From: Candidatus Nomurabacteria bacterium
Lineage (GTDB): Bacteria; Patescibacteriota; Minisyncoccia; Phycocordibacterales; UBA918
Direction: 5' to 3'
NCBI GenBank assembly: GCA_023898585.1
Contig: CP060229.1
Location: 726,587-790,586 of the forward strand
DNA: 64,000 bases
Position 1 is the stretch's first letter. Each line of letters starts with the position of its first letter. This document shows positions 299-9,008 of this stretch, one piece after another. The translations under genes and the position numbers were made by a program. Below the pieces are notes generated by a model that saw only the letters and a list, made by a program, of their open reading frames with translations, ran no database searches and had not been told where the DNA came from.

Positions 299-2989
299 TT
301 ATGTCAGTTGTTTATGTTTGTCCACTGTTTTGACGATAAATCTGTTTGTAAAATACTTTGCGCCCTCCACGAGAGAAACATTCACAAGTATCCAGAGTAA
401 AATGAACCCGATCCAAATCGGCGAAAGTGGCAGAACTTCAAAGGTCGTCCTAAGAAATGGTACGGTAAAGGTTGCGATCATTAGTAATACTCCAATACCG
501 ACTCCGGTCAAGAGTAGCTTGTTGTCAGTTAATGAATAACTGAAAAGCGGACGGCTTAAGTCTAAAAAAGAGAACGAAATGAACAATGTATATGATCCAA
601 AGCTTGCAAACAAGATGCTTCTTGCTAACTCGACTGCTACTCCGTTTTTAAGTAGAGTTAAATATAGGATCAAAAGTAAAAAAGAAACCACCAGACCTAC
701 AAAAATAGTCAAGAAAAGTACTCTTCGGTCAAAGAATTTCTTGGCAGTGGTTTCCGATTCTCGCATTTTTTGTCTGTCGAAAGCAAAAGCAATGGCCGGT
801 AAACTTCCGGTAAACAGATTTACCCATATAATCTGGACGGCTGTAAGTGGTAGGGCTACTCCGTATATTATAGCTCCGCTAATTAAAATAATCTCGTCCA
901 GAGAGTCGGACATAAGATAAACAAACATTTTCTTAATATTACTGAGTATTTGTTTACCTTCCTCTATGGTTGAGACTATCGTCTTAAAGTTATCGTCAAG
1001 CAATATTAAATCAGCTACACTCTTCGCTACATCACTACCTGAGCCTACGGCGATACCTATATTGGCGGCCTTGAGAGAAGGGGAGTCGTTCACTCCGTCT
1101 CCGGTCATGGCTACAATCTCGCCCTTGGCTTGGTGTAGTTTGGTGATCCGAAGCTTGTCAGACGGAGTCACTCGAGCGTATATGTGAATACGGTCAAGTA
1201 TAGCGTTTAAATCGTCGTCAGAGAGCTGTTGCAGTTGTTGTCCTGTCAACACATTCGTCTCGTCTACATCCCAACCAATTTCCTTGGCAATAGCCAAAGC
1301 AGTCCCGGGTAAATCACCTGTGGCCATAATCACTCTCGTGCCATAAGCATTAATTTTCCTCAGCGCCTCTGGTACTTCCGGACGAATTGGGTCGTGGAAA
1401 CTTAGTACTCCTAGAAATGAAATATCCTTCACATGGTCTATGGTGATTGAAGGTTCGTCGGTGTGTGGAGTAAGGAGAGCTATTCCGAGCACGCGTCGGC
1501 CAGAGTGACTGTGTTCAGCGATTGCTTTCTGCACTTTTTGGTAAGAATCATGGTCTATGTATGAACGGTTAAGGAGTATGTCTGGTGCTCCCATCACGAT
1601 ATGGGGATCTTCAAATTGACTTAGGTGTTTAGGTAAATACTGAGTCGGGATTCTGGTTACGGAAAATTTATGTTTTGAACTGAAGGGTATTCGCACCTGT
1701 ATTTCTGAACGGTCGGCGTCGTTTTGAATCACTTGCAGAGATCCGGCGGCGCGAACAATATTTGTTTCTAGGTCTGAACCGCTCATTACCCACGATTCGT
1801 AGTCATCTTCTGGATTCTCGATCGTTACATCACAGGCACAACGTGCCAAAGTCAGGATATCGGTCTGTTCTTGGTTGAAATTGTCATGATGATCGGCTGG
1901 TGTAAAGTCGAAAGCAGTGAGTTGAGAAATAGTATCGATATCGATTAGTTTCATGTCCGCCTGAGTCAGAGTGCCAGTTTTATCGGTAATGATAAGTGTT
2001 GTTGAACCGAGTGTTTCGGCGGCTGTGAGGCTACGCATTATGCCTTTCTTCTTGGCTATCCTTTCCACCCCGATAGCCAAAATAGCCGTGAGGCCGATAG
2101 GCAAAGCTTCCGGCACGGAACCTACTAGTACTGCGATCGAAATTAAAAGCATTTCATAAATCGGCTGATTTTGAGATATTCCTGCCATAAAAATAGCCAA
2201 AACCGCAATAGTGGTGACCACAATTATTACCCAGGTTAATTGACCAAGTGCCTTTTGTAACGGGGTTTGTTCTGACTTCACTTCATCGACCAGACGAGCC
2301 AACTTACCTATTTCAGTGTTATATCCGGTTGCTGTCACTGTGGCGTAGACAGAGCCGTTGATTCCGAGAGTGCCGGCATAAATCATATTGTTTCTCTCTG
2401 GCAAAGGAGCTGTTTCAGACAGTGGCTCTATAGCTTTTTCAACTGACAATGATTCTCCCGTCAAAATTGACTCGTCGGCTGTAAAGTCAATTTCTTTAAC
2501 GACACGCGCGTCAGCAGTTATGCGCGCCCCGTTTATAATATGAATAATATCTCCCGGTACTAAAAATCTTGGATCTATTTCAAATTCGTGTCCATCCCGT
2601 ATTACTCTTGTCCGGTATGTTATGTAAGAACGTAAATCAGCGATGGCTTTTTCCGCTTTAAACTCCTGAACGAAGCCCAAGATAGCATTCACTATTACCG
2701 CAAAAGCAATAATTGAAGTGTCTAGCCATTCTTGCAATGAAGCTGTTATGACAACCGCCACGCAAAGTATGATAATAAGCGGACTGGTGAATTGTCCGAG
2801 AAAAATTTCCAAGGAGGTTTTTTCCTTACCGGACTCAAAAACATTTTCACCATGCAGACCAATTCGTTTTTTGGCTTCCTCAGCGCTAAGACCTTTGGAT
2901 GGATTTGTCTGTAGTAGGTTTTCTATATCTGTTGTTGTGTCCGCCCACGGACTATGAGGTAAGGTAATCATGTGTTTTAAGTGTACCAA
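299..2989 (-). CDS. cation-transporting P-type ATPase (type II, Ca2+/Mg2+-like)
   Basis: 896 aa. DKTGTLT phosphorylation motif, TGDGVNDSPSLKAANIGIAVG hinge, MATGD, 10 TM segments, PEALP TM4 motif. Confidence 0.9.
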   Translation of the reverse strand: MVHLKHMITLPHSPWADTTTDIENLLQTNPSKGLSAEEAKKRIGLHGENVFESGKEKTSLEIFLGQFTSPLIIILCVAVVITASLQEWLDTSIIAFAVIVNAILGFVQEFKAEKAIADLRSYITYRTRVIRDGHEFEIDPRFLVPGDIIHIINGARITADARVVKEIDFTADESILTGESLSVEKAIEPLSETAPLPERNNMIYAGTLGINGSVYATVTATGYNTEIGKLARLVDEVKSEQTPLQKALGQLTWVIIVVTTIAVLAIFMAGISQNQPIYEMLLISIAVLVGSVPEALPIGLTAILAIGVERIAKKKGIMRSLTAAETLGSTTLIITDKTGTLTQADMKLIDIDTISQLTAFDFTPADHHDNFNQEQTDILTLARCACDVTIENPEDDYESWVMSGSDLETNIVRAAGSLQVIQNDADRSEIQVRIPFSSKHKFSVTRIPTQYLPKHLSQFEDPHIVMGAPDILLNRSYIDHDSYQKVQKAIAEHSHSGRRVLGIALLTPHTDEPSITIDHVKDISFLGVLSFHDPIRPEVPEALRKINAYGTRVIMATGDLPGTALAIAKEIGWDVDETNVLTGQQLQQLSDDDLNAILDRIHIYARVTPSDKLRITKLHQAKGEIVAMTGDGVNDSPSLKAANIGIAVGSGSDVAKSVADLILLDDNFKTIVSTIEEGKQILSNIKKMFVYLMSDSLDEIILISGAIIYGVALPLTAVQIIWVNLFTGSLPAIAFAFDRQKMRESETTAKKFFDRRVLFLTIFVGLVVSFLLLILYLTLLKNGVAVELARSILFASFGSYTLFISFSFLDLSRPLFSYSLTDNKLLLTGVGIGVLLMIATFTVPFLRTTFEVLPLSPIWIGFILLWILVNVSLVEGAKYFTNRFIVKTVDKHKQLT

Positions 2990-3044
2990 ATCTTTAGTTG
3001 TCTAGAGTGAGTCGCTGTGGGTGAATATGTTAAACTTCTGACAT

Positions 3045-3725
3045 ATGAAAAATCCTTGGGTAATCATTTGTCTCATAACCATAATCTTGTTTGGGGGTGC
3101 CTTTTGGTACTCAAAAGTTGTCGATAATAAAAACAACGAAGGTGTGGAGATTGTTCAAAACATCAAAGGTAATGTCGAAGCAAGGGTTCGTCTGGTTGAG
3201 TACAGTGATTTCCAGTGCCCCTCATGCGCCAGTTTCCAGCCGATCATGGACCAGATTTTTGAGGAGTTCAGTAATGATGTGAATCTCGAATACAAACATT
3301 TTCCGCTCTATATTCATCAATACGCAAGACAAGCTTCCGTAGCGGCGGAGGCGGCCGGTCAACAAGGTAAGTTTTTTGAATTTCACGATATGTTGTTTGA
3401 GAGACAAGTCGAATGGTCTTCCGCAAGGACTCCTGACACTCTCTTTGTACAGTACGCCAGTGAATTGGAGTTAGACATACCCAAATTTAAACGTCACATG
3501 AAATCATCCGTATTGAGAGACAAAGTCAACACTGAATTTGAAGAGGGTAGACAGGCGGGAGTAACTGGCACGCCAACCCTTTTCCTTAATGGTGAAATTA
3601 TGAAGTACGATTCATACCAATCACTTATTGAACAAGTCGCGTTCGCGGTCAATCCAGAATCCAAAGCGACATCCGGCAGTGAAGAAACTAAGACTGGAGT
3701 ATCAGATGTAAAATTCGGATTATAG
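3045..3725 (+). CDS. DsbA-family thiol:disulfide oxidoreductase, membrane anchored
   Basis: N-terminal TM helix followed by a thioredoxin fold with CPSC active site (FQCPSCASF). Confidence 0.8.
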   Translation: MKNPWVIICLITIILFGGAFWYSKVVDNKNNEGVEIVQNIKGNVEARVRLVEYSDFQCPSCASFQPIMDQIFEEFSNDVNLEYKHFPLYIHQYARQASVAAEAAGQQGKFFEFHDMLFERQVEWSSARTPDTLFVQYASELELDIPKFKRHMKSSVLRDKVNTEFEEGRQAGVTGTPTLFLNGEIMKYDSYQSLIEQVAFAVNPESKATSGSEETKTGVSDVKFGL

Positions 3726-3801
3726 GAGCGATTTATATCCCGAATGGTATCTAGACATATATCTTTTGGCTAAAATGTTGTAGTATTTTGTTCGTTTATA
3801 T

Positions 3802-5073
3802 ATGAAATCAAAGCAAGTTTTCGATGAAAATCTTTTCCAAGCGCTTTGCAAAATAAGCCCCTATATTGACGAAGCGGAATGGTTGAAAGATCATATTAGA
3901 ATTCGTCACGAGGAGAGAGAAAAATTTTTAAACAACGAAATCGAAAACCCCCACTTTACTTATAGTCCCCAAAAGTCCAAAGTTGATTATTTGAAATTGA
4001 TCGAAGAGTTCAATCAGTGTTTAAAAGACTCCGATGTGCCGGCGGTGGTAGTAGATCTGTACCAAAGGAAACTCGAAAAGCAACTACATCGAAATGCACT
4101 GATCGAAGCTTCGCTTGCTGGCGATGACCACGTTTTCTTTGAAAGGAGTTCTGATATTTACGGTCGACCACAGAAAAAGTATTTTTCTTATGTTGCTAAA
4201 CGGTTACTTACCTTGTGTAACGAACAAAAAAGTAAATACCCGGTTATTTCCCGCCGTTTGCGTAAAGTTGTGTCAAAAATCAACCAAAACGGCATTGATA
4301 TTGACGTCAGCATGTTACCGCCTTTAGTGACAAATGGTAGGCTGATTCGATCGGTGGATGAGGTTAGGAGTATATTTATAGAAACGTTGAGTCGGTGTGG
4401 TATTGAGGGTTGGATTGTCAGTGTCGATAAGGCAGGAACCAGAGGACGTTTCTCGGTTAGTCCGCAAAGTAAGACAATTCACATACCTTGTGAGTCAGAA
4501 TTGTTGTCTAGACCTCAGTCTCTTACCGATCATGGTGTCCAAGCGTTGGCTGAACACGAAGTCGGAGTTCACGTCAGACGTTCGTATGAGGCTTCAAAAG
4601 GACCTCTAAGGTTGCTCGAAATTGGTCTTGATAATTATCTTCCCGGTGAAGAGGGGTTGGCCAGTTATGCGCAACAACAGGTTGAAGGAGCCGATGAATT
4701 CTATGGGTTTGACAGGTATCTGGCGGCCAGCTTGGCGGTCGGTATGGATGGCGAGGTGAGAGATTTCCGTTCCGTTTTCAGTTTAATGTCAGATTATTAC
4801 ACTTTGAAATTCGCGCTCGAAGATAAGACAGTCTCAATTCCTTTTCAGGCAGCGTGGGATATTTGTGTGCGCATTTTCAGGGGAACTACCGGGCAAACCC
4901 CAGGTTGTATTTTTACGAAGGATATCGTGTACATGAAAGGTAATATCGGCATATGGAATTTGCTTTCCGAAAGACCAAAAGTCTTTGAGTCGCTATTTAT
5001 TGGCAAATATAACCCTTTACTTTCCCGACATGTAAAGACTTTACAAACGCTTGATATTCTGGAAGAGTGGTAG
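3802..5073 (+). CDS. DUF1704 / flavohemoglobin-expression-modulating QEGLA-motif protein (MATCAP-like HExxH metallopeptidase fold)
   Basis: HEVGVH (HExxH) motif, and a PGEEGLASYAQQ block that corresponds to the family's QEGLA signature. Its 3' end overlaps the next gene by 7 bp. Confidence 0.7.
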   Translation: MKSKQVFDENLFQALCKISPYIDEAEWLKDHIRIRHEEREKFLNNEIENPHFTYSPQKSKVDYLKLIEEFNQCLKDSDVPAVVVDLYQRKLEKQLHRNALIEASLAGDDHVFFERSSDIYGRPQKKYFSYVAKRLLTLCNEQKSKYPVISRRLRKVVSKINQNGIDIDVSMLPPLVTNGRLIRSVDEVRSIFIETLSRCGIEGWIVSVDKAGTRGRFSVSPQSKTIHIPCESELLSRPQSLTDHGVQALAEHEVGVHVRRSYEASKGPLRLLEIGLDNYLPGEEGLASYAQQQVEGADEFYGFDRYLAASLAVGMDGEVRDFRSVFSLMSDYYTLKFALEDKTVSIPFQAAWDICVRIFRGTTGQTPGCIFTKDIVYMKGNIGIWNLLSERPKVFESLFIGKYNPLLSRHVKTLQTLDILEEW

Positions 5074-6038
5074 TCATGAAAATAATATCTTCAAAATTAT
5101 TTGCACCCGCGCTGTTTTGTTGCCTTTTGTTTTTACCGTTTATATCTTTTGCTCAATCAGAAACTGAAACATTTGGCTTTAGAGATGATCTAACCGAAGT
5201 CAAAGAAAGTACCTCTACCGCAACATCGACCATAATCGAAGAGGGTACAGCATCCGCGACCGCTGCAAATATCATTGGTCAACAGGCGATTTCTTCCAAA
5301 GGCAACGACTTGACTCGTCCCGAGGAGTTACCTGAAAAGGTGGCTATCATTACGTTGTTTGAAGATCGTCCTGTTAATGAACTGAGCTTTATCAACGCTA
5401 TGGCTTTTTGGGTTCAAGAATCAGTTCGTGACGGTATTCCGGCCAACACGATTTTCCTCATCCTCTTGACACCTTTTTTGGCCTTATTCGTGAGTTTTGT
5501 TAGGGTGGTGGTCGGTTTACCAACACTTGATATGCTGGTCCCGATCGCTTTATCTTTCGCTTTGGTTGCCGTCGGTGTGACGGTTGGTCTATTGGTCTTG
5601 GGGGCGATTTTGGTTGCTTCATATATATCCAAGAAGATACTGTCCCACTTGCGTATCATGTTTTACCCTAAGCGTTCTCTTTCCATAGTGTTGCTTGCCA
5701 TTTCAGTTTTTGCCGCTTTGTCAATCGGTGTTGCTTTTGAATTTGAAAAAATTCTCAGCGTGTCGATTTTCCCAATCTTGGTTTTGTTGTTGTTGGGTGA
5801 CATGATTGTTTCCGTTCAATTACACAAAAGCCCAACAGAGACTTTGATGATTACTGGTACGACAATATTTATCGGTTTGATAGGCTACATGGTGGCGACC
5901 AGTGACGCTATCCAAAACACCATAATCCTTTACCCAGAACTAGTGTTACTTGTCATCCCGGCTAATCTCTTGATTGGTAGGTACTTTGGATTGCGCGTAT
6001 TTGAGGTGTTTAGGTTTAGTAAAGTCAGTAAAGGTTAA
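5067..6038 (+). CDS. 7-TM membrane protein (third component of the ATP-grasp/QEGLA cluster)
   Basis: Signal peptide, a ~100-aa Thr/Ser-rich ectodomain, then 7 predicted TM helices. Its position between the DUF1704 and ATP-grasp genes matches the known conserved trio. Confidence 0.55.
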   Translation: MVVMKIISSKLFAPALFCCLLFLPFISFAQSETETFGFRDDLTEVKESTSTATSTIIEEGTASATAANIIGQQAISSKGNDLTRPEELPEKVAIITLFEDRPVNELSFINAMAFWVQESVRDGIPANTIFLILLTPFLALFVSFVRVVVGLPTLDMLVPIALSFALVAVGVTVGLLVLGAILVASYISKKILSHLRIMFYPKRSLSIVLLAISVFAALSIGVAFEFEKILSVSIFPILVLLLLGDMIVSVQLHKSPTETLMITGTTIFIGLIGYMVATSDAIQNTIILYPELVLLVIPANLLIGRYFGLRVFEVFRFSKVSKG

Positions 6039-6063
6039 TTGTCCACTAAATTAAATTTTATTT

Positions 6064-7356
6064 ATGCCAGTAAGTAATTCACTGTTGGGGATGAACGCCC
6101 GAAATTTCTTATACATAAGAAAATTCAATTCCAAAAAACAAAAGATGGTGGCAGACGATAAAATGTTAACCAAGAAACGTCTTATAAATGCCGGTGTACC
6201 TACAAACTCCTTTTTGGCAAAATTCACAGATTATCAGGAAGTGCGTGAATTTGACTGGGGTTCCTTACCTTCTGATTTTGCTATCAAACCATCTCATGGG
6301 TATGGTGGGCGAGGTATTTTTGTGGTAAGGAAATGGGACGGCAAGGCCGGAGTGATAGGAAAGGGAGCAAAAGTCGATATTCTAGAACTCGAAAGAGTGA
6401 TTTTTGGCACATTGGATGGTGAACATTCGTTAAACAACTTACCTGACGCGGCCTTTATCGAAGAAAGAATCAGACCACACACTTTTTTTAAGAAGTATTC
6501 TGCCAAAGGAGTAGCGGACATACGTTTAATCGTTTGCAATATGGTGCCGGTCATGGCTATGTTGCGTCTACCGACTATTTATTCAGATGGTAAGGCCAAT
6601 TTACATCTCGGAGCTTTGGGGGTGGGAATAGACATAAGAACCGGTATCACCACTTCAGCGGTGGTGCATAATCAACCGGTCTATTACATACCAGGTACTA
6701 AAATTAAAGTCCATGGAATCAGGATTCCCGATTGGGATAAAATACTGGAGATATCCGTGCGGGCACAGCAATGTTCAAGATTGGGTTTTGCTGGAATAGA
6801 TATAGTTCTCGATGATAAACAAGGGCCATTAGTGCTTGAAGTCAACGCTCGTCCTGGTTTGGGTATTCAGGTTGCTAACCAAGCTTCTCTTCGCACAAGA
6901 CTGGAAAGAATTGGAGATTTAAATGTACAAACTGTAACCAGGGGAGTTGAATTGGCAAAAAAATTATTCGCCGATGAGACGCTTGAGGATGTCAGTGAAC
7001 AAAAATCCGCCTTGCTTGGAGTGATAGAAAAAATTGTCATCTATGGCAACGAAAACAAAAAGACAGTCCGGGCTAAAGTAGACACTGGTGCTTATCGTAC
7101 CTCGATTGACAGCGATTTAGTAGAAGAGCTTGGGCTTGATCCGCATAGTAAAACTGTTCATGTGCGGTCGGGAAGTGGCAGGCAAAAACGTCGAACCGTA
7201 AAACTCAAGTTTAAAATGAAAGGCAAGGAAATAAATACGGTTGCTACTTATACTCCGCGAGGACACCTTCGCTTTCCGGTGATTATTGGACGTAAAGACA
7301 TGGAAGGTTTTTTGGTCGACCCTGCCGATATACCGGAGGGTGTTTTGGTGAAATAA
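6064..7356 (+). CDS. RimK-like ATP-grasp alpha-L-glutamate ligase-related protein fused to a C-terminal retropepsin-like (DUF785/Zn_protease-type) aspartyl peptidase domain
   Basis: ATP-grasp blocks (GYGGRGIFVV, LEVNARPGLG). The C-terminal ~105 aa contain KVDTGAYRTSIDSDL, the DTG aspartyl-protease signature (nt 7081-7089). Confidence 0.8.
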   Translation: MPVSNSLLGMNARNFLYIRKFNSKKQKMVADDKMLTKKRLINAGVPTNSFLAKFTDYQEVREFDWGSLPSDFAIKPSHGYGGRGIFVVRKWDGKAGVIGKGAKVDILELERVIFGTLDGEHSLNNLPDAAFIEERIRPHTFFKKYSAKGVADIRLIVCNMVPVMAMLRLPTIYSDGKANLHLGALGVGIDIRTGITTSAVVHNQPVYYIPGTKIKVHGIRIPDWDKILEISVRAQQCSRLGFAGIDIVLDDKQGPLVLEVNARPGLGIQVANQASLRTRLERIGDLNVQTVTRGVELAKKLFADETLEDVSEQKSALLGVIEKIVIYGNENKKTVRAKVDTGAYRTSIDSDLVEELGLDPHSKTVHVRSGSGRQKRRTVKLKFKMKGKEINTVATYTPRGHLRFPVIIGRKDMEGFLVDPADIPEGVLVK

Positions 7357-7487
7357 GAATTTTGTTGAATCCCACATACTCGACAGAGACAATAATTCCC
7401 GCTTAAAGGTACTACAGTCGTCCAGTTATTAAGGTTCCACCTTATTTAGCTATTGGGGTGATACCGGGCCTTTGGTATGATTAGGAG

Positions 7488-8279
7488 ATGTTTAGAACGC
7501 GTGATTTTGTTCTTGTTTTCACAACAGTACTGTTTTTGTTAATGGCTATTGGCACAACTGTTTTTAAACAAAATTACAACTTAGGAATGGCAGACAAACC
7601 GGAAAACCCGGCTGAGAGAATGAACGAAGAATATAAGGCTGAGGTGTACGTCAAGGAAACTGTTACTCGTGAAGAGCGCTTAATTAGTATGAGGGAACAG
7701 ATTGCTAAAAGTAATAGTGTCACTATTTCTTCTCCGGTTTCGAATCCACCCGAGATTGAAACCCCGGCCCTATCGGAAGAGTCAGAGTCGAAAACCGAAG
7801 CGGAAGTACAGTATTGCCAAGATTATGCCAAATATGCGGGAAGTTGGCCAAATGGTGGGGTTATGCTTGATGTCTCGGAGGGAGCGAGGATAGTTTACAC
7901 GGAAAATTTTTTGGAAAACGAATTTAATTATATCGGCACATCATCGGGTGTGAGTACTACAGAAACGAGGAAAGATGTGATTCTGCAATTACCTGTCTTT
8001 GGTATTAAATCACTAGGCGTATCGTGTTTGAGCAGTGATGTTATCGGTATTGCCAAAGAAGGTTCGTTGATTCGCAACGATGAGGCTAGTTTGTATGGAA
8101 TATTCAATTCCGGTACTTTAGTGGGATATGCTCTTGATGGTTTCCCTATTTACGGAGTGGGTGAAGTTGATGCTGATTCCTGTGGGGGATCGTCTGTCGA
8201 TGGTCAGTACGGTTATTACATCTCAAAGGAAAGAAGTGTCATTTTGAATTGTTTTTCAGCCAAACCGGTCAAAATTTAA
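7488..8279 (+). CDS. hypothetical membrane-anchored extracytoplasmic protein
   Basis: N-terminal TM anchor, Ser/Glu-rich linker, no recognisable motifs. Confidence 0.45.
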   Translation: MFRTRDFVLVFTTVLFLLMAIGTTVFKQNYNLGMADKPENPAERMNEEYKAEVYVKETVTREERLISMREQIAKSNSVTISSPVSNPPEIETPALSEESESKTEAEVQYCQDYAKYAGSWPNGGVMLDVSEGARIVYTENFLENEFNYIGTSSGVSTTETRKDVILQLPVFGIKSLGVSCLSSDVIGIAKEGSLIRNDEASLYGIFNSGTLVGYALDGFPIYGVGEVDADSCGGSSVDGQYGYYISKERSVILNCFSAKPVKI

Positions 8280-8282
8280 TTT

Positions 8283-9008
8283 ATGTCGACTCTGATTTTG
8301 GATATCGAGACAATTGGTCAAGAGTGGGATTCTTTGCCAGAAACCAGTAAAGAAAGTTTGACCAAGTGGATTGATAAAAGTGGAGACGAAAAGGAAGAGA
8401 AGGACAGGAAGCGTGACGATGTTAAAGAGCGTCTCAGCCTGTCACCCTTTACCGGCCTAATCGTCTCTGTGGCGATGTACGATGTTGAGCGAGATTTGGG
8501 CGCTGTATATTTTACGTCTGATTTGCCAGATGAATCATTCAAATCTAATTCATTTACTTTTAAACAAAGGACTGAAAAAGAAATACTCGAAGATTTTTGG
8601 GAGGGAGCAATCGGGTACGATACTTTTGTGACTTTTAATGGGCGGGCTTTTGCTCTGCCTTTTTTGATGCACCGTTCGGTCATAAACGAAATAAAACCAT
8701 CAGTCGAAATAGCTCACCAACGATATCTAACCAAGCAATCAGCACCTTTCCATGTCGACGTGTTGGACGAAATGACTTTCTACGGAGCGGTACAAAAAAG
8801 ACCTTCTCTACAATTGTTGTGTAATAGTTACGGGACCGTCTATCATCAGGAATTGGGAGGTAGTTACATCTCCGAACTTTTTAAAATGAAAAAATTCCGG
8901 CACATTGCGGAACATAATGCCATGGATGTTCTTGCTATAAAAGACTTGTATTTGAAATGGAAGGAATATATGGCCCCGCTCGCCTTTATAAATAAACTTG
9001 AAATGTAG
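8283..9008 (+). CDS. RNase H-like / DEDD-type 3'-5' exonuclease-like protein (COG3359/YprB-like)
   Basis: LILDIETIG (Exo I, D-x-E), FNGRAFALPFL (Exo II-like block), HNAMDVLAIKDLY (Exo III-like). Confidence 0.55.
   Translation: MSTLILDIETIGQEWDSLPETSKESLTKWIDKSGDEKEEKDRKRDDVKERLSLSPFTGLIVSVAMYDVERDLGAVYFTSDLPDESFKSNSFTFKQRTEKEILEDFWEGAIGYDTFVTFNGRAFALPFLMHRSVINEIKPSVEIAHQRYLTKQSAPFHVDVLDEMTFYGAVQKRPSLQLLCNSYGTVYHQELGGSYISELFKMKKFRHIAEHNAMDVLAIKDLYLKWKEYMAPLAFINKLEM

What the first reader, a model, noticed from the sequence alone, without database searches (positions are those of the whole stretch)
7036..7356. ATP-grasp ligase carries a C-terminal retropepsin-like DTG domain (fusion in unusual order)
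The last ~105 residues of the RimK-like ligase contain KVDTGAYRTSIDSDL (DTG at nt 7081-7089). This is characteristic of the retropepsin-like 'putative ATP-dependent zinc protease' domain (PF05618). That domain usually sits as a separate gene next to RimK, or as an N-terminal fusion. A C-terminal fusion to the ligase places synthesis and cleavage activities in one polypeptide.
Basis: partly seen in the sequence, partly recalled or inferred. Interest (0 to 1): 0.55.

Follow-up and report, generated by a model that had tools for sequence, protein, structure and literature searches.

The report
Ligase fused to retropepsin-like protease
One 430-residue protein of an uncultured ultra-small (Patescibacteria/CPR) bacterium joins an ATP-dependent amino-acid ligase to a small HIV-protease-like aspartic protease; the fusion is real and conserved in hundreds of related genomes, so it is an undescribed but common variant of the known RimK/RimB and RloABC systems, not a one-off oddity.

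Summary
ORF 6064-7356 (+) encodes 430 aa: an ATP-grasp ligase (residues 13-285, PF14397/TIGR02291-like, the RloC type, not RimK proper), a disordered linker, and a retropepsin-like domain of about 105 aa (residues ~317-420). DTGA lies at nt 7081-7092 and IIGRKD at 7282-7299.

Pfam, a profile search of the PDB and a Foldseek search of an AlphaFold model all place the C-domain with RloA, Lpg0085 (DUF785), Ddi1 and HIV protease. The residues matching RloA's polyglutamate contacts are conserved (K338, R376, R399).

"Unusual order" holds only against the published RimBK hybrid. At least 407 species-level genomes encode relatives. The best 80, all CPR, have the two domains in one frame, and 78 have a 7TM RloB-like gene directly upstream. 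D340 is kept in 81/81 sequences.

The window operon is MATCAP-like metallopeptidase, 7TM protein, then the fusion. Related proteins fuse these four modules in other combinations.

Best reading: a cytoplasmic synthesis-and-cleavage enzyme for acidic (probably poly-alpha-glutamate) chains, working at the 7TM partner. The identity is solid; the substrate, the dimer and the activity are inferred.

Verdict: new variant of a known kind, moderate interest.

The parts
3802..5073 (+). Gene for a MATCAP/QEGLA (DUF1704)-like metallopeptidase, 423 aa, first gene of the operon core. No signal peptide or TM segment. HEVGVH (HExxxH) at residue 252 and EEGLA at residue 283.
   Evidence: Pfam PF08014, E 1.7e-22, 80.4 bits against 27. 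TIGR02421 scores 86.5, below its cut-off of 338.65. Motifs and hydropathy. A MATCAP-like gene lies within 6 kb in 16/80 related loci. It is fused to the ligase-protease in proteins of about 800 aa.
5067..6038 (+). Gene for a 7TM membrane protein, 323 aa: a signal peptide, then an S/T/A/E-rich ectodomain of about 100 aa, then the RloB-type 7TM module. It has no transglutaminase domain. It overlaps the upstream gene by 7 nt and ends 25 nt before the fusion gene. The basic C-terminal tail GRYFGLRVFEVFRF is predicted cytoplasmic.
   Evidence: Pfam PF14402, E 1.1e-21, residues 131-320. NCBIfam RloB scores 44.5 against a cut-off of 900, matching the C-terminal 7TM part only. Hydropathy and tail motif. 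It is directly upstream of the fusion gene in 78/80 loci; the other two contigs are truncated there.
6064..7356 (+). Gene for the 430-aa bifunctional protein (ATP-grasp ligase, linker, retropepsin-like peptidase).
   Evidence: The conserved N-terminus MPVSNSLLGMNARN supports the start at 6064.
6100..6918 (+). ATP-grasp amidoligase domain, residues 13-285 (RloC/TIGR02291-like, PF14397). The conserved ATP-grasp positions K75, E133, D246, E259 and N261 are kept.
   Evidence: PF14397, E 1.7e-62. TIGR02291 scores 254.3 bits, below its cut-off of 314.2. Foldseek matches ArgX, LysX, RimK and cyanophycin synthetase. K75, D246 and E259 are kept in 81/81 sequences.
6919..7011 (+). Linker, residues 286-316: one helix, then a disordered acidic stretch (FADETLEDVSEQKS). 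It is the less conserved part between the two domains.
   Evidence: pLDDT is below 50 at residues 307-315. Column conservation is 0.505 for the linker, 0.642 for the ligase and 0.574 for the protease domain.
7012..7323 (+). Retropepsin-like aspartic peptidase domain, residues ~317-420. It is compact (about 105 aa), contains no cysteine, and has a net positive charge.
   Evidence: 0 Cys; 23 K+R against 15 D+E in residues 311-430.
7075..7092 (+). K338-V-D340-T-G-A343: the catalytic Asp motif (DTGA), preceded by Lys with the same spacing as K46-x-D48 of RloA.
   Evidence: Sequence. K338 and D340 kept in 81/81, T/S341 in 81/81, G342 in 80/81, A343 in 80/81. The motif aligns with DTGA of RloA, RloA2, Lpg0085 and Ddi1.
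7153..7218 (+). Flap hairpin, residues 364-385, including R376 (7189-7191).
   Evidence: Strands 364-369 and 372-385 with lower pLDDT (56-70), as expected for a mobile flap. R376 is kept in 79/81 sequences and aligns with the Arg of the RloA stretch 'ARPV'.
7258..7260 (+). R399, an invariant Arg 23 residues after R376. The spacing equals that between the RloA polyglutamate-contact residues R114 and R137.
   Evidence: Kept in 81/81 sequences. Aligns with the Arg of the RloA stretch 'TDRS'. The roles of RloA R114/R137 are taken from PMC11957051.
7282..7299 (+). I407-I-G-R-K-D412: the hydrophobic-hydrophobic-Gly plus Arg-x-Asp motif found in retropepsins (compare GRN/GRD in retroviral proteases).
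   Evidence: G409 kept in 81/81, R410 in 71/81, D412 in 79/81. Aligns with LIGxxxL of RloA and Ddi1.

Best explanation
The gene encodes a bifunctional cytoplasmic enzyme of an rlo/rim-like system. The N-terminal ATP-grasp domain (RloC type, a relative of RimK) uses ATP to add amino acids, most likely L-glutamate in alpha linkage, to the C-terminus of an acceptor or of a growing free chain. The C-terminal retropepsin-like domain pairs with that of a second subunit to form a two-Asp active site. This site has a basic substrate channel and cuts the acidic chain endoproteolytically. One protein therefore sets both the synthesis and the length or turnover of the product, as RimK and RimB do as separate proteins. 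The enzyme probably works at the cytoplasmic face of the 7TM protein encoded 25 nt upstream. The MATCAP-like metallocarboxypeptidase encoded two genes upstream would trim the remaining C-terminal residues. Shown here: the domain identities, the fold, the conservation of both catalytic motifs, the lack of any signal peptide or TM segment, the tight gene linkage with the 7TM gene, and domain fusions that link all four modules. Inferred: glutamate as the substrate, dimerisation, actual proteolysis, the identity of the acceptor, and the role of the 7TM protein (anchor, regulator or exporter).
For: Domain calls: PF14397 E 1.7e-62, PF13650 E 2.3e-9, weak RloA3/RloA2 matches. Fold: the C-domain model (pLDDT 82.3) matches RloA 9g58, Lpg0085 2pma, RloA2 9g59, Ddi1 and HIV/foamy-virus proteases at probability 1.00. 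The N-domain matches ArgX, LysX, RimK and CphA. Active sites are under purifying selection in 81 sequences of 42-100% identity: D340, K338, R399 and G409 in 81/81; R376 in 79/81; ATP-grasp K75, D246 and E259 in 81/81. K338-x-D340 and R376/R399 (23 residues apart) align with RloA K46-x-D48 and R114/R137. Those RloA residues contact an octaglutamate peptide in an AlphaFold2 model, and mutating R114 or R137 impairs cleavage in vitro and abolishes complementation. RimB and RloA cleave stretches of 8 or more Glu, RimB stimulates poly-alpha-glutamate synthesis by RimK, and a RimB-RimK hybrid is proteolytically active (PMC11957791, PMC11957051). Cytoplasmic location: no signal peptide or TM segment, and no Cys, whereas periplasmic RloA orthologues carry a conserved disulfide. 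Genetic linkage: the 7TM gene is directly upstream in 78/80 loci, and a MATCAP-like gene is nearby in 16/80. Fusions seen elsewhere: ligase-protease-MATCAP, protease-7TM-ligase, protease-7TM. In P. aeruginosa, loss of rloB or rloC rescues the triple protease mutant, so the ligase and the membrane protein act in the same pathway as the protease.
Against: No biochemical data exist for any member of this fused family. TIGR02291 and the RloA/RloB NCBIfam models score well below their cut-offs, so orthology with RloABC is not established. The amino acid added by RloC-type ligases is unknown even in Pseudomonas. The D. psychrophila RimBK hybrid did not glutamylate P. fluorescens RpsF. The closest relatives of the protease domain that are fused to 7TM modules carry signal peptides, so they are outside the cell; the compartment of action is therefore not fixed in this family. 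In the triple fusion of about 800 aa, only 57/120 keep D[TS]G, which shows the domain can persist without catalysis. The dimer could not be modelled. The 64-kb window encodes no run of 5 or more acidic residues, so there is no obvious encoded substrate.
Confidence: 0.6

Rival explanations
1. Same fused enzyme, but the acceptor is not a protein or a free peptide. The ligase decorates an envelope precursor (a peptidoglycan stem, or a lipid- or sugar-linked intermediate) that the 7TM protein then translocates. The protease and MATCAP edit or recycle that decoration.
For: Pfam names PF14397 'sugar-transfer associated ATP-grasp'. The rlo phenotypes in P. aeruginosa concern the envelope: hypo-osmotic lysis, cell shape and beta-lactam sensitivity. 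The 7TM partner is strictly linked. No genome-encoded poly-acidic substrate was found in the window or in Pseudomonas.
Against: The best structural matches of the ligase domain (ArgX/LysX, RimK, cyanophycin synthetase) are peptide or protein C-terminus ligases. The conserved K/R/R channel matches a polyanionic peptide substrate. No glycosyltransferase or Mur-type gene is conserved next to the gene pair.
Confidence: 0.2
2. The retropepsin-like domain is mainly non-catalytic. It would act as a dimerisation module, a binder of the acidic chain, or an activator of the ligase, and proteolysis would be marginal.
For: RimB stimulates RimK synthesis as well as cutting the product. In the related ligase-protease-MATCAP proteins the domain is always retained, but D[TS]G survives in only 57/120.
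Against: In the two-domain architecture found in the window, the catalytic Asp is kept in 81/81 sequences, Thr/Ser in 81/81, Gly in 80/81 and Ala in 80/81. The flap and GRxD motifs are also conserved at 42-100% overall identity. This pattern is expected for an active enzyme.
Confidence: 0.1
3. The protease domain is an autoprocessing module. It would cut the acidic linker and release itself from the ligase, as retroviral proteases leave their polyprotein, giving two separate proteins as in RimK/RimB.
For: The linker is disordered and acidic (FADETLEDVSEQ). Retropepsins in polyproteins excise themselves (general knowledge).
Against: The linker is among the less conserved segments (0.505, against 0.642 and 0.574 for the flanking domains) and never carries the run of 8 or more Glu that RloA requires. 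A proteolytically active RimBK hybrid was purified from D. psychrophila. A conserved fusion in more than 400 genomes argues for a benefit of covalent linkage.
Confidence: 0.07
4. The DTG motif is a chance occurrence, or the fusion is an assembly or annotation artefact.
For: A single D[TS]G is not rare by composition (0.24 expected). PF05618 is just under its threshold. One database gene call for the identical protein is N-terminally shortened to 397 aa.
Against: Several independent profile and fold matches. The single-frame fusion is present in 80/80 loci from independent assemblies.
Confidence: 0.01

Closest known systems
RloABC operon of Pseudomonas (Lormand et al. 2025, PMC11957051): RloA retropepsin-like peptidases, RloB inactive-transglutaminase 7TM protein, RloC ATP-grasp protein
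   Same: The same three module types in one operon: a PF14397/TIGR02291-type ATP-grasp, a PF14402 7TM module, and a DUF785/PF05618-lineage retropepsin with DTGA. The residues matching RloA's polyE contacts (K-x-D, and two Arg 23 residues apart) are conserved. The best PDB matches of the C-domain are RloA and RloA2.
   Different: Here the protease is fused to the C-terminus of the ligase, so it is cytoplasmic; RloA is a separate secreted protein with a signal peptide and a disulfide. The domain is about 25-30 residues shorter, with a shorter region between DTG and the first Arg. The 7TM protein lacks the transglutaminase domain and has a low-complexity ectodomain instead. A MATCAP-like peptidase gene is added. 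All NCBIfam Rlo models score far below their cut-offs. The host is a Patescibacteria bacterium, not a Gammaproteobacterium.
RimK/RimB and the RimBK hybrid (Little et al. 2025, PMC11957791)
   Same: A cytoplasmic ATP-grasp glutamate ligase is paired with, or fused to, a cytoplasmic retropepsin-like endopeptidase that cuts poly-alpha-glutamate. The hybrid shows that a covalent ligase-protease fusion can be proteolytically active.
   Different: The domain order is reversed: RimBK has the protease at the N-terminus. The ligase here is not RimK (TIGR00768 scores 49.6 against 143.4). There is no RimA partner. Here the partners are a 7TM protein and a MATCAP-like peptidase. RimBK is reported mainly in Flavobacteriales and Rhodobacterales.
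Tubulin tyrosine ligase (TTL/TTLL) with the MATCAP detyrosinase in eukaryotes
   Same: An ATP-grasp ligase that adds residues to a protein C-terminus is paired with a MATCAP-family metallocarboxypeptidase that removes them. PF08014 is matched by the gene at 3802-5073, and there is a weak PF03133 TTL match in the ligase.
   Different: This is a bacterial system with an additional endopeptidase domain and a membrane partner. No tubulin-like substrate is known. The analogy rests on family membership, not on tested activity.
Lpg0085 (PDB 2pma, DUF785) and other stand-alone bacterial retropepsin-like proteins such as APRc of Rickettsia
   Same: The same fold and the same DTGA/ψψG motifs.
   Different: Those are stand-alone or membrane-anchored proteins; this one is the C-terminal domain of a ligase.

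Membership tests
Clan AA retropepsin-like peptidases (PF13650 / PF13975 / PF05618 'RimB-like', DUF785) | Profile HMM match above the curated threshold | tested here: met
   PF13650 scores 38.3 against 24.3 and PF13975 scores 33.4 against 28.2. PF05618 itself scores 26.2 against 27.0, which is not met by 0.8 bit. Most close homologues carry a precomputed PF05618 hit.
Clan AA retropepsin-like peptidases (PF13650 / PF13975 / PF05618 'RimB-like', DUF785) | Catalytic D-T/S-G-A motif, plus the hydrophobic-hydrophobic-Gly motif | tested here: met
   DTGA at residues 340-343 and IIGRKD at 407-412. D340 and G409 are kept in 81/81 sequences.
Clan AA retropepsin-like peptidases (PF13650 / PF13975 / PF05618 'RimB-like', DUF785) | Retropepsin fold with a flap hairpin | tested here: met
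   The AlphaFold model (pLDDT 82.3) matches RloA, 2pma, Ddi1 and HIV/foamy-virus proteases in Foldseek, E 5e-7 to 1e-4, probability 1.00.
Clan AA retropepsin-like peptidases (PF13650 / PF13975 / PF05618 'RimB-like', DUF785) | Homodimer with two paired catalytic Asp residues; proteolytic activity | not testable with these tools
   Only single chains can be predicted here, and no assay is possible. Conservation of the fireman's-grip Thr/Ser and of GRxD is compatible with a dimer (inference).
RloA (secreted retropepsin-like osmotic-stress peptidases; NCBIfam NF052263/NF052264) | NCBIfam equivalog score | tested here: not met
   RloA3 scores 32.1 against 210. RloA2 scores 18.4 against 250.
RloA (secreted retropepsin-like osmotic-stress peptidases; NCBIfam NF052263/NF052264) | N-terminal signal peptide and the conserved periplasmic disulfide | tested here: not met
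   The domain is internal and C-terminal to a cytoplasmic ligase. It has no hydrophobic leader and no Cys.
RloA (secreted retropepsin-like osmotic-stress peptidases; NCBIfam NF052263/NF052264) | Basic residues that contact polyglutamate (K46, R114, R137) | tested here: met
   K338, R376 and R399 align with them, with the same K-x-D spacing and the same 23-residue Arg spacing. They are kept in 81/81, 79/81 and 81/81 sequences.
RloC / TIGR02291 alpha-L-glutamate ligase-like ATP-grasp (PF14397) | Family HMM above the cut-off | tested here: inconclusive
   PF14397 scores 211.6 against 31.4 (met). The TIGR02291 hypothetical-equivalog model scores 254.3 against 314.2 (not met). The protein belongs to the domain family, but orthology with RloC is not shown.
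RloC / TIGR02291 alpha-L-glutamate ligase-like ATP-grasp (PF14397) | Intact ATP-grasp nucleotide- and Mg-binding residues | tested here: met
   K75, D246 and E259 are kept in 81/81, N261 in 80/81 and E133 in 78/81. The assignment of these positions as the catalytic ones rests on general knowledge of ATP-grasp enzymes.
RimK proper / RimBK hybrid | [quoted passage not shown] | tested here: not met
   TIGR00768 scores 49.6 against 143.4, and the protease is C-terminal. True RimBK-type representatives exist in the same search (P0204, P0251).
RloB (inactive transglutaminase fused to 7TM) | Periplasmic inactive transglutaminase domain plus the 7TM module | tested here: not met
   Only the 7TM module is present (PF14402, residues 131-320). 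NF052267 scores 44.5 against 900, matching profile positions 313-505 only. The ectodomain is a low-complexity S/T/A/E region.
MATCAP / DUF1704 / QEGLA metallopeptidases | PF08014 match with the HExxxH and (Q/E)EGLA motifs | tested here: met
   PF08014 scores 80.4 against 27. HEVGVH is at residue 252 and EEGLA at residue 283. The TIGR02421 equivalog cut-off is not reached (86.5 against 338.65).

The most novel reading that the evidence does not exclude
The Patescibacteria fusion could be the minimal, all-cytoplasmic form of the Rlo-type machinery. A membrane-docked ligase-endopeptidase would polymerise an acidic alpha-peptide (oligo- or poly-glutamate) and cut it to a defined length. It would then hand the product to the 7TM partner for export or display on the surface of these ultra-small, host-dependent cells. 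That would be a non-ribosomal peptide-polymer secretion pathway not yet described. It would also identify the still unknown product of the clinically relevant Pseudomonas rloABC operon. The varied placement of the protease (inside when fused to the ligase, outside when fused to the 7TM module, catalytically eroded when MATCAP is fused) would then mark different points at which the same polymer is trimmed.
Probability: 0.15. Interest if true: 0.7.

Novelty: new variant of a known kind. Interest (0 to 1): 0.4.

Why it matters
The natural product and substrate of the RloABC system are unknown, although the system affects osmotic tolerance, biofilm formation and antibiotic sensitivity in P. aeruginosa. 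The fused two-gene version (7TM protein plus ligase-protease) found in hundreds of Patescibacteria genomes gives a simpler system to study. It ties the protease directly to the ligase's product, and it links the 7TM and MATCAP-like modules to the same pathway through domain fusions. It would be a convenient protein for in vitro identification of the polymer. It also adds a conserved and probably envelope-related function to genomes known for extreme reduction. The gain is an extension of two papers from 2025, not a new principle.

Tried and rejected
1. A single-sequence phmmer search of the C-domain against the PDB gave only marginal hits (2pma E 0.0085). A profile of 43 homologues was needed.
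2. Iyer et al. 2009 is the original comparative-genomics description of these ATP-grasp/7TM/peptidase operons. It is not held in the library, so I could not check whether it mentions a C-terminal fusion.
3. Literature searches for RimK or ATP-grasp together with Patescibacteria found no description of this fusion.
4. The AlphaFold-database fold library was unavailable, so I could not list UniProt entries with the same architecture.
5. The promoter and terminator scan of 2800-8400 was no better than shuffled sequence. Operon structure is inferred from the 7-nt overlap and the 25-nt gap.
6. Rfam found only one tRNA in the window, so there is no rRNA for taxonomy. The taxon is inferred from the nearest genomes.
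7. PADLOC gave only E ~1e-3 hits to a retropepsin-like component of a candidate system. A defence-system reading was rejected.
8. A RiPP/graspetide reading was rejected. There is no room for a precursor gene inside the operon, and the ligase groups with ArgX, LysX and RimK ahead of PsnB.
9. A search of the window for other retropepsin or RloC-type genes, and for encoded runs of 5 or more acidic residues, found none.
Full report
**1. What is in the sequence**

The ORF 6064-7356 (+) encodes 430 residues. A lone D[TS]G is not remarkable: 0.24 are expected from composition. The domain-level evidence is what counts.

- Pfam finds PF14397 (ATPgrasp_ST) at residues 13-285, E 1.7e-62.
- At residues 331-409 it finds PF13650 (E 2.3e-9, 38.3 bits against a cut-off of 24.3) and PF13975 (33.4 against 28.2).
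- NCBIfam gives TIGR02291 'alpha-L-glutamate ligase-like' at 254 bits (cut-off 314) and weak matches to RloA3 and RloA2.

**2. Fold of the two domains**

A full-length AlphaFold model (pLDDT 80.6) shows two folded parts joined by a disordered stretch at residues 307-315.

A model of residues 311-430 alone (pLDDT 82.3) was searched against the PDB with Foldseek. The best matches were:
- P. fluorescens RloA (9g58, E 5e-7);
- Legionella Lpg0085/DUF785 (2pma);
- P. aeruginosa RloA2 (9g59);
- human, yeast, Leishmania and Toxoplasma Ddi1;
- foamy-virus and HIV-1 proteases;
- Rickettsia APRc.

All had probability 1.00.

A profile of 43 small homologues hits RloA at E 1.8e-10 and aligns DTGA with the catalytic motif of RloA, RloA2, Lpg0085 and Ddi1.

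The N-terminal part matches ArgX, LysX, RimK and cyanophycin synthetase. By sequence its nearest solved relative is RimK, but only over the Mg-binding loop.

**3. Conservation**

In 32 close homologues (60-84% identity) the following positions are invariant: DTGA, K338, R345, R368, GSG 370-372, R376, Y396, R399, H401 and G409-R410-x-D412.

In 81 sequences spanning 42-100% identity:
- both domains sit in one frame in 80 of 80 loci;
- D340, K338, R399 and G409 are kept in 81/81;
- T/S341 is kept in 81/81, G342 in 80/81 and R376 in 79/81;
- the ATP-grasp residues K75, D246 and E259 are kept in 81/81.

The linker (0.505) and above all the last ten residues (0.151) are less conserved than the two domains (0.642 for the ligase, 0.574 for the protease). 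The fusion is therefore real, and both catalytic centres are under purifying selection.

**4. Link to experimentally studied systems**

Two papers from 2025 describe the relevant biology.

- *RimB (PMC11957791).* RimB is a cytoplasmic retropepsin-like endopeptidase. It removes the glutamates that RimK adds to ribosomal protein S6, and it stimulates poly-alpha-glutamate synthesis by RimK. [quoted passage not shown]
- *RloABC (PMC11957051).* RloA, RloA2 and RloA3 are secreted, disulfide-containing homologues of RimB. RloA was shown to cleave runs of 8 or more Glu. RloA is encoded in an operon with RloB (an inactive transglutaminase fused to 7 TM helices) and RloC (an ATP-grasp protein). Loss of rloB or rloC rescues the triple protease mutant. 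K46, R114 and R137 contact polyglutamate in an AlphaFold2 model. Mutating R114 or R137 impairs cleavage in vitro and abolishes complementation.

In the profile alignment, K338-x-D340 corresponds to K46-x-D48. R376 and R399 correspond to the two RloA arginines in 'ARPV' and 'TDRS', and both pairs are 23 residues apart.

The window domain is shorter between DTG and the first Arg (36 residues, against 66 in RloA). It has no cysteine and carries a net positive charge.

**5. Genomic context**

The gene is the last of three tightly packed genes on the same strand:
- 3802-5073: a MATCAP/DUF1704/QEGLA-like metallopeptidase (PF08014, E 1.7e-22), with HEVGVH and EEGLA present;
- 5067-6038: a PF14402 7TM protein, overlapping the previous gene by 7 nt;
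- 6064-7356: the fusion gene, starting 25 nt after the 7TM gene.

The 7TM protein has a signal peptide and an S/T/A/E-rich ectodomain of about 100 residues where RloB has its transglutaminase domain. Its C-terminal tail is basic. Together with the basic loop after residue 189, this fits a topology with the N-terminus outside and the C-terminus inside.

**6. How common the fusion is**

- The protein database returns 7,721 relatives. The best 120 clusters are all about 429 aa with both domains. Where a source names an organism, it is a Nomurabacteria, Kaiserbacteria or Pacebacteria bacterium. The names given are 'aspartyl protease family protein' or 'alpha-L-glutamate ligase-like protein'.
The best 80 all cover residues 1 to about 420. 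They come from Parcubacteria/Paceibacterota and Microgenomates lineages: Levyi-, Roizman-, Davies-, Curtiss-, Woese-, Chisholm-, Andersen- and Portnoybacteria.
- Twenty-two records are titled 'uncultured Gammaproteobacteria'. In 15 of them the fused protein is 72-100% identical to that of a Levyi-, Curtiss- or Woesebacteria genome; in the other 7 it is 56-60% identical to a Levyibacteriota one. These titles look like mislabels.
- The 7TM gene lies directly upstream in 78/80 loci; the other two contigs are truncated there.
- A MATCAP-like gene lies within 6 kb in 16/80 loci.

**7. Domain order in relatives**

An exhaustive HMMER search with the C-domain alone finds 604 representatives (50% identity clusters) at E <= 1e-3. 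The best 150 break down as follows:

| Architecture | Count |
|---|---|
| Stand-alone protease domain (89 of them 170 aa or shorter) | 100 |
| Ligase then protease (some are fragments; 2 carry MATCAP appended; one has a true RimK ligase) | 22 |
| Protease then 7TM (one continues into an ATP-grasp; one has two protease domains) | 19 |
| Tandem protease-protease | about 5-7 |
| RimBK-type (protease then RimK) | 2 |

The ligase-then-protease order is therefore the usual ligase fusion in this sub-family. It is reversed only relative to the published RimBK.

**8. Where the protease acts**

The protease-7TM fusions all begin with a signal peptide or a TM anchor, for example MKKGLLLFVLLAVQTFAQTEIG... 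In P0154 the order is TM, protease, 7TM, ATP-grasp. This places the protease outside the cell and the ligase inside, as with secreted RloA.

The window protein has no hydrophobic leader and is fused to an ATP-requiring domain. Its protease must therefore be cytoplasmic, like RimB. Close relatives of one protease domain thus act on either side of the membrane.

**9. A contrasting architecture**

The ligase-protease-MATCAP protein of about 800 aa is itself widespread. All 120 best clusters are 779-832 aa, and where an organism is named they come from Peregrinibacteria and other Patescibacteria. All 120 retain the middle domain (HMM i-E <= 1e-3). Only 57/120 keep D[TS]G; the others have DTS, DPx, or N/E/A in place of the Asp.

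Two conclusions follow. The strict conservation of DTG in the two-domain form is meaningful. The domain probably also has a non-catalytic role, such as dimerisation, binding of the chain, or stimulation of the ligase.

**10. Mechanism proposed**

*Shown here.* A cytoplasmic protein with an intact ATP-grasp site and an intact retropepsin site. It is obligatorily linked to a 7TM protein and often linked, or even fused, to a MATCAP-like carboxypeptidase.

*Inferred.* The ligase builds an acidic alpha-peptide, most likely poly-Glu, on an acceptor or as a free chain. Two C-domains pair to form the Asp dyad and cut the chain. MATCAP trims the ends. The 7TM protein docks, regulates or exports.

*Rivals.* The acceptor could be an envelope precursor. 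The domain could be mainly non-catalytic. The domain could excise itself at the linker. The artefact explanation is excluded.

**11. Verdict**

- the ligase is of the RloC type, not RimK;
- PF05618 is marginal in this protein, although the lineage is correct;
- the order is typical of a large Patescibacteria family, not unusual there.

I found no paper describing this architecture in the searchable library, and the 2009 comparative-genomics paper could not be read. I rate it a new variant of a known kind, of moderate interest. Its main value is as a simple route to the unknown product of Rlo-type systems.

Noticed in passing
P0196 family; not in the window: Proteins of about 800 aa fuse ATPgrasp_ST, a retropepsin-like domain and MATCAP. 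They are widespread in Peregrinibacteria and other Patescibacteria (120 of the 120 best clusters). All keep the middle domain, but only 57/120 keep D[TS]G at the catalytic position. The protease active site therefore seems to erode once a MATCAP carboxypeptidase is fused. One member is named 'ketopantoate hydroxymethyltransferase' by NCBI, which looks like a misannotation.
   Followed up: partly
P0154, P0155, P0156, P0186, P0199, P0207 and others: Nineteen of the 150 nearest representatives fuse the protease domain, behind a signal peptide or TM anchor, to the N-terminus of the RloB-type 7TM module, the position the inactive transglutaminase occupies in RloB. P0154 continues into an ATP-grasp (protease-7TM-ligase, 657 aa). 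This implies an extracytoplasmic protease and a cytoplasmic ligase on one chain.
   Followed up: partly
P0127, P0129, P0130, P0137, P0157; P0128: These are tandem duplications of the retropepsin-like domain in one chain of about 220-270 aa. P0128 has two copies plus a 7TM module. They would be single-chain pseudo-dimers, analogous to the two lobes of pepsin.
   Followed up: no
P0263: A 539-aa protein with a class I lysyl-tRNA synthetase domain (PF01921, E 2.3e-84) followed by a C-terminal retropepsin-like domain. It could be a real fusion or a merged gene call; this was not resolved.
   Followed up: no
L014:7507-8412 and 17 other loci; L079:5213-6727 and 12 other loci: Many related loci carry a second ATP-grasp gene. 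Eighteen of 80 have a true RimK-type ligase of about 300 aa (PF08443, E 8.9e-28). Thirteen of 80 have an ATP-grasp_3 protein of about 505 aa. In the two example loci it lies just downstream of the fusion gene. The window has no equivalent next to its operon.
   Followed up: partly
window 5067-5460 (N-terminal third of the 7TM protein): The RloB-like protein has a cleavable-looking signal peptide (…FISFAQSE) and an S/T/A/E-rich low-complexity ectodomain of about 100 residues where RloB has its inactive transglutaminase domain. The basic cytoplasmic tail motif GxYxGLRxxExxRF is conserved across the 7TM family, including the protease-7TM fusions.
   Followed up: partly
L019, L021, L025-L031, L034, L037-L044, L052-L059, L067: Twenty-two genome records are titled 'uncultured Gammaproteobacteria bacterium' (TPA bins). 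In 15 of them the fusion protein is 72-100% identical to that of a Levyi-, Curtiss- or Woesebacteria genome; in the other 7 it is 56-60% identical to a Levyibacteriota one. Locus GC content is 34-50%. The taxonomic titles look wrong.
   Followed up: yes
window 6064-6162; P0001 / L081: The public gene call for the identical protein (metagenome SRR26387399) starts 33 codons downstream, giving 397 aa. This drops the conserved N-terminus MPVSNSLLGMNARN that all homologues share. The start at 6064 is the better one.
   Followed up: yes
window 3045-3725, 7488-8279, 8283-9008: Three genes flank the operon on the same strand: a DsbA-like thioredoxin-fold protein with an N-terminal TM segment, a weak YHYH-domain protein, and a PolB-exonuclease-like protein. 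The same order recurs in the closest relatives (L002, L003, L005) but not in distant ones. This is shared synteny, not part of the system.
   Followed up: partly
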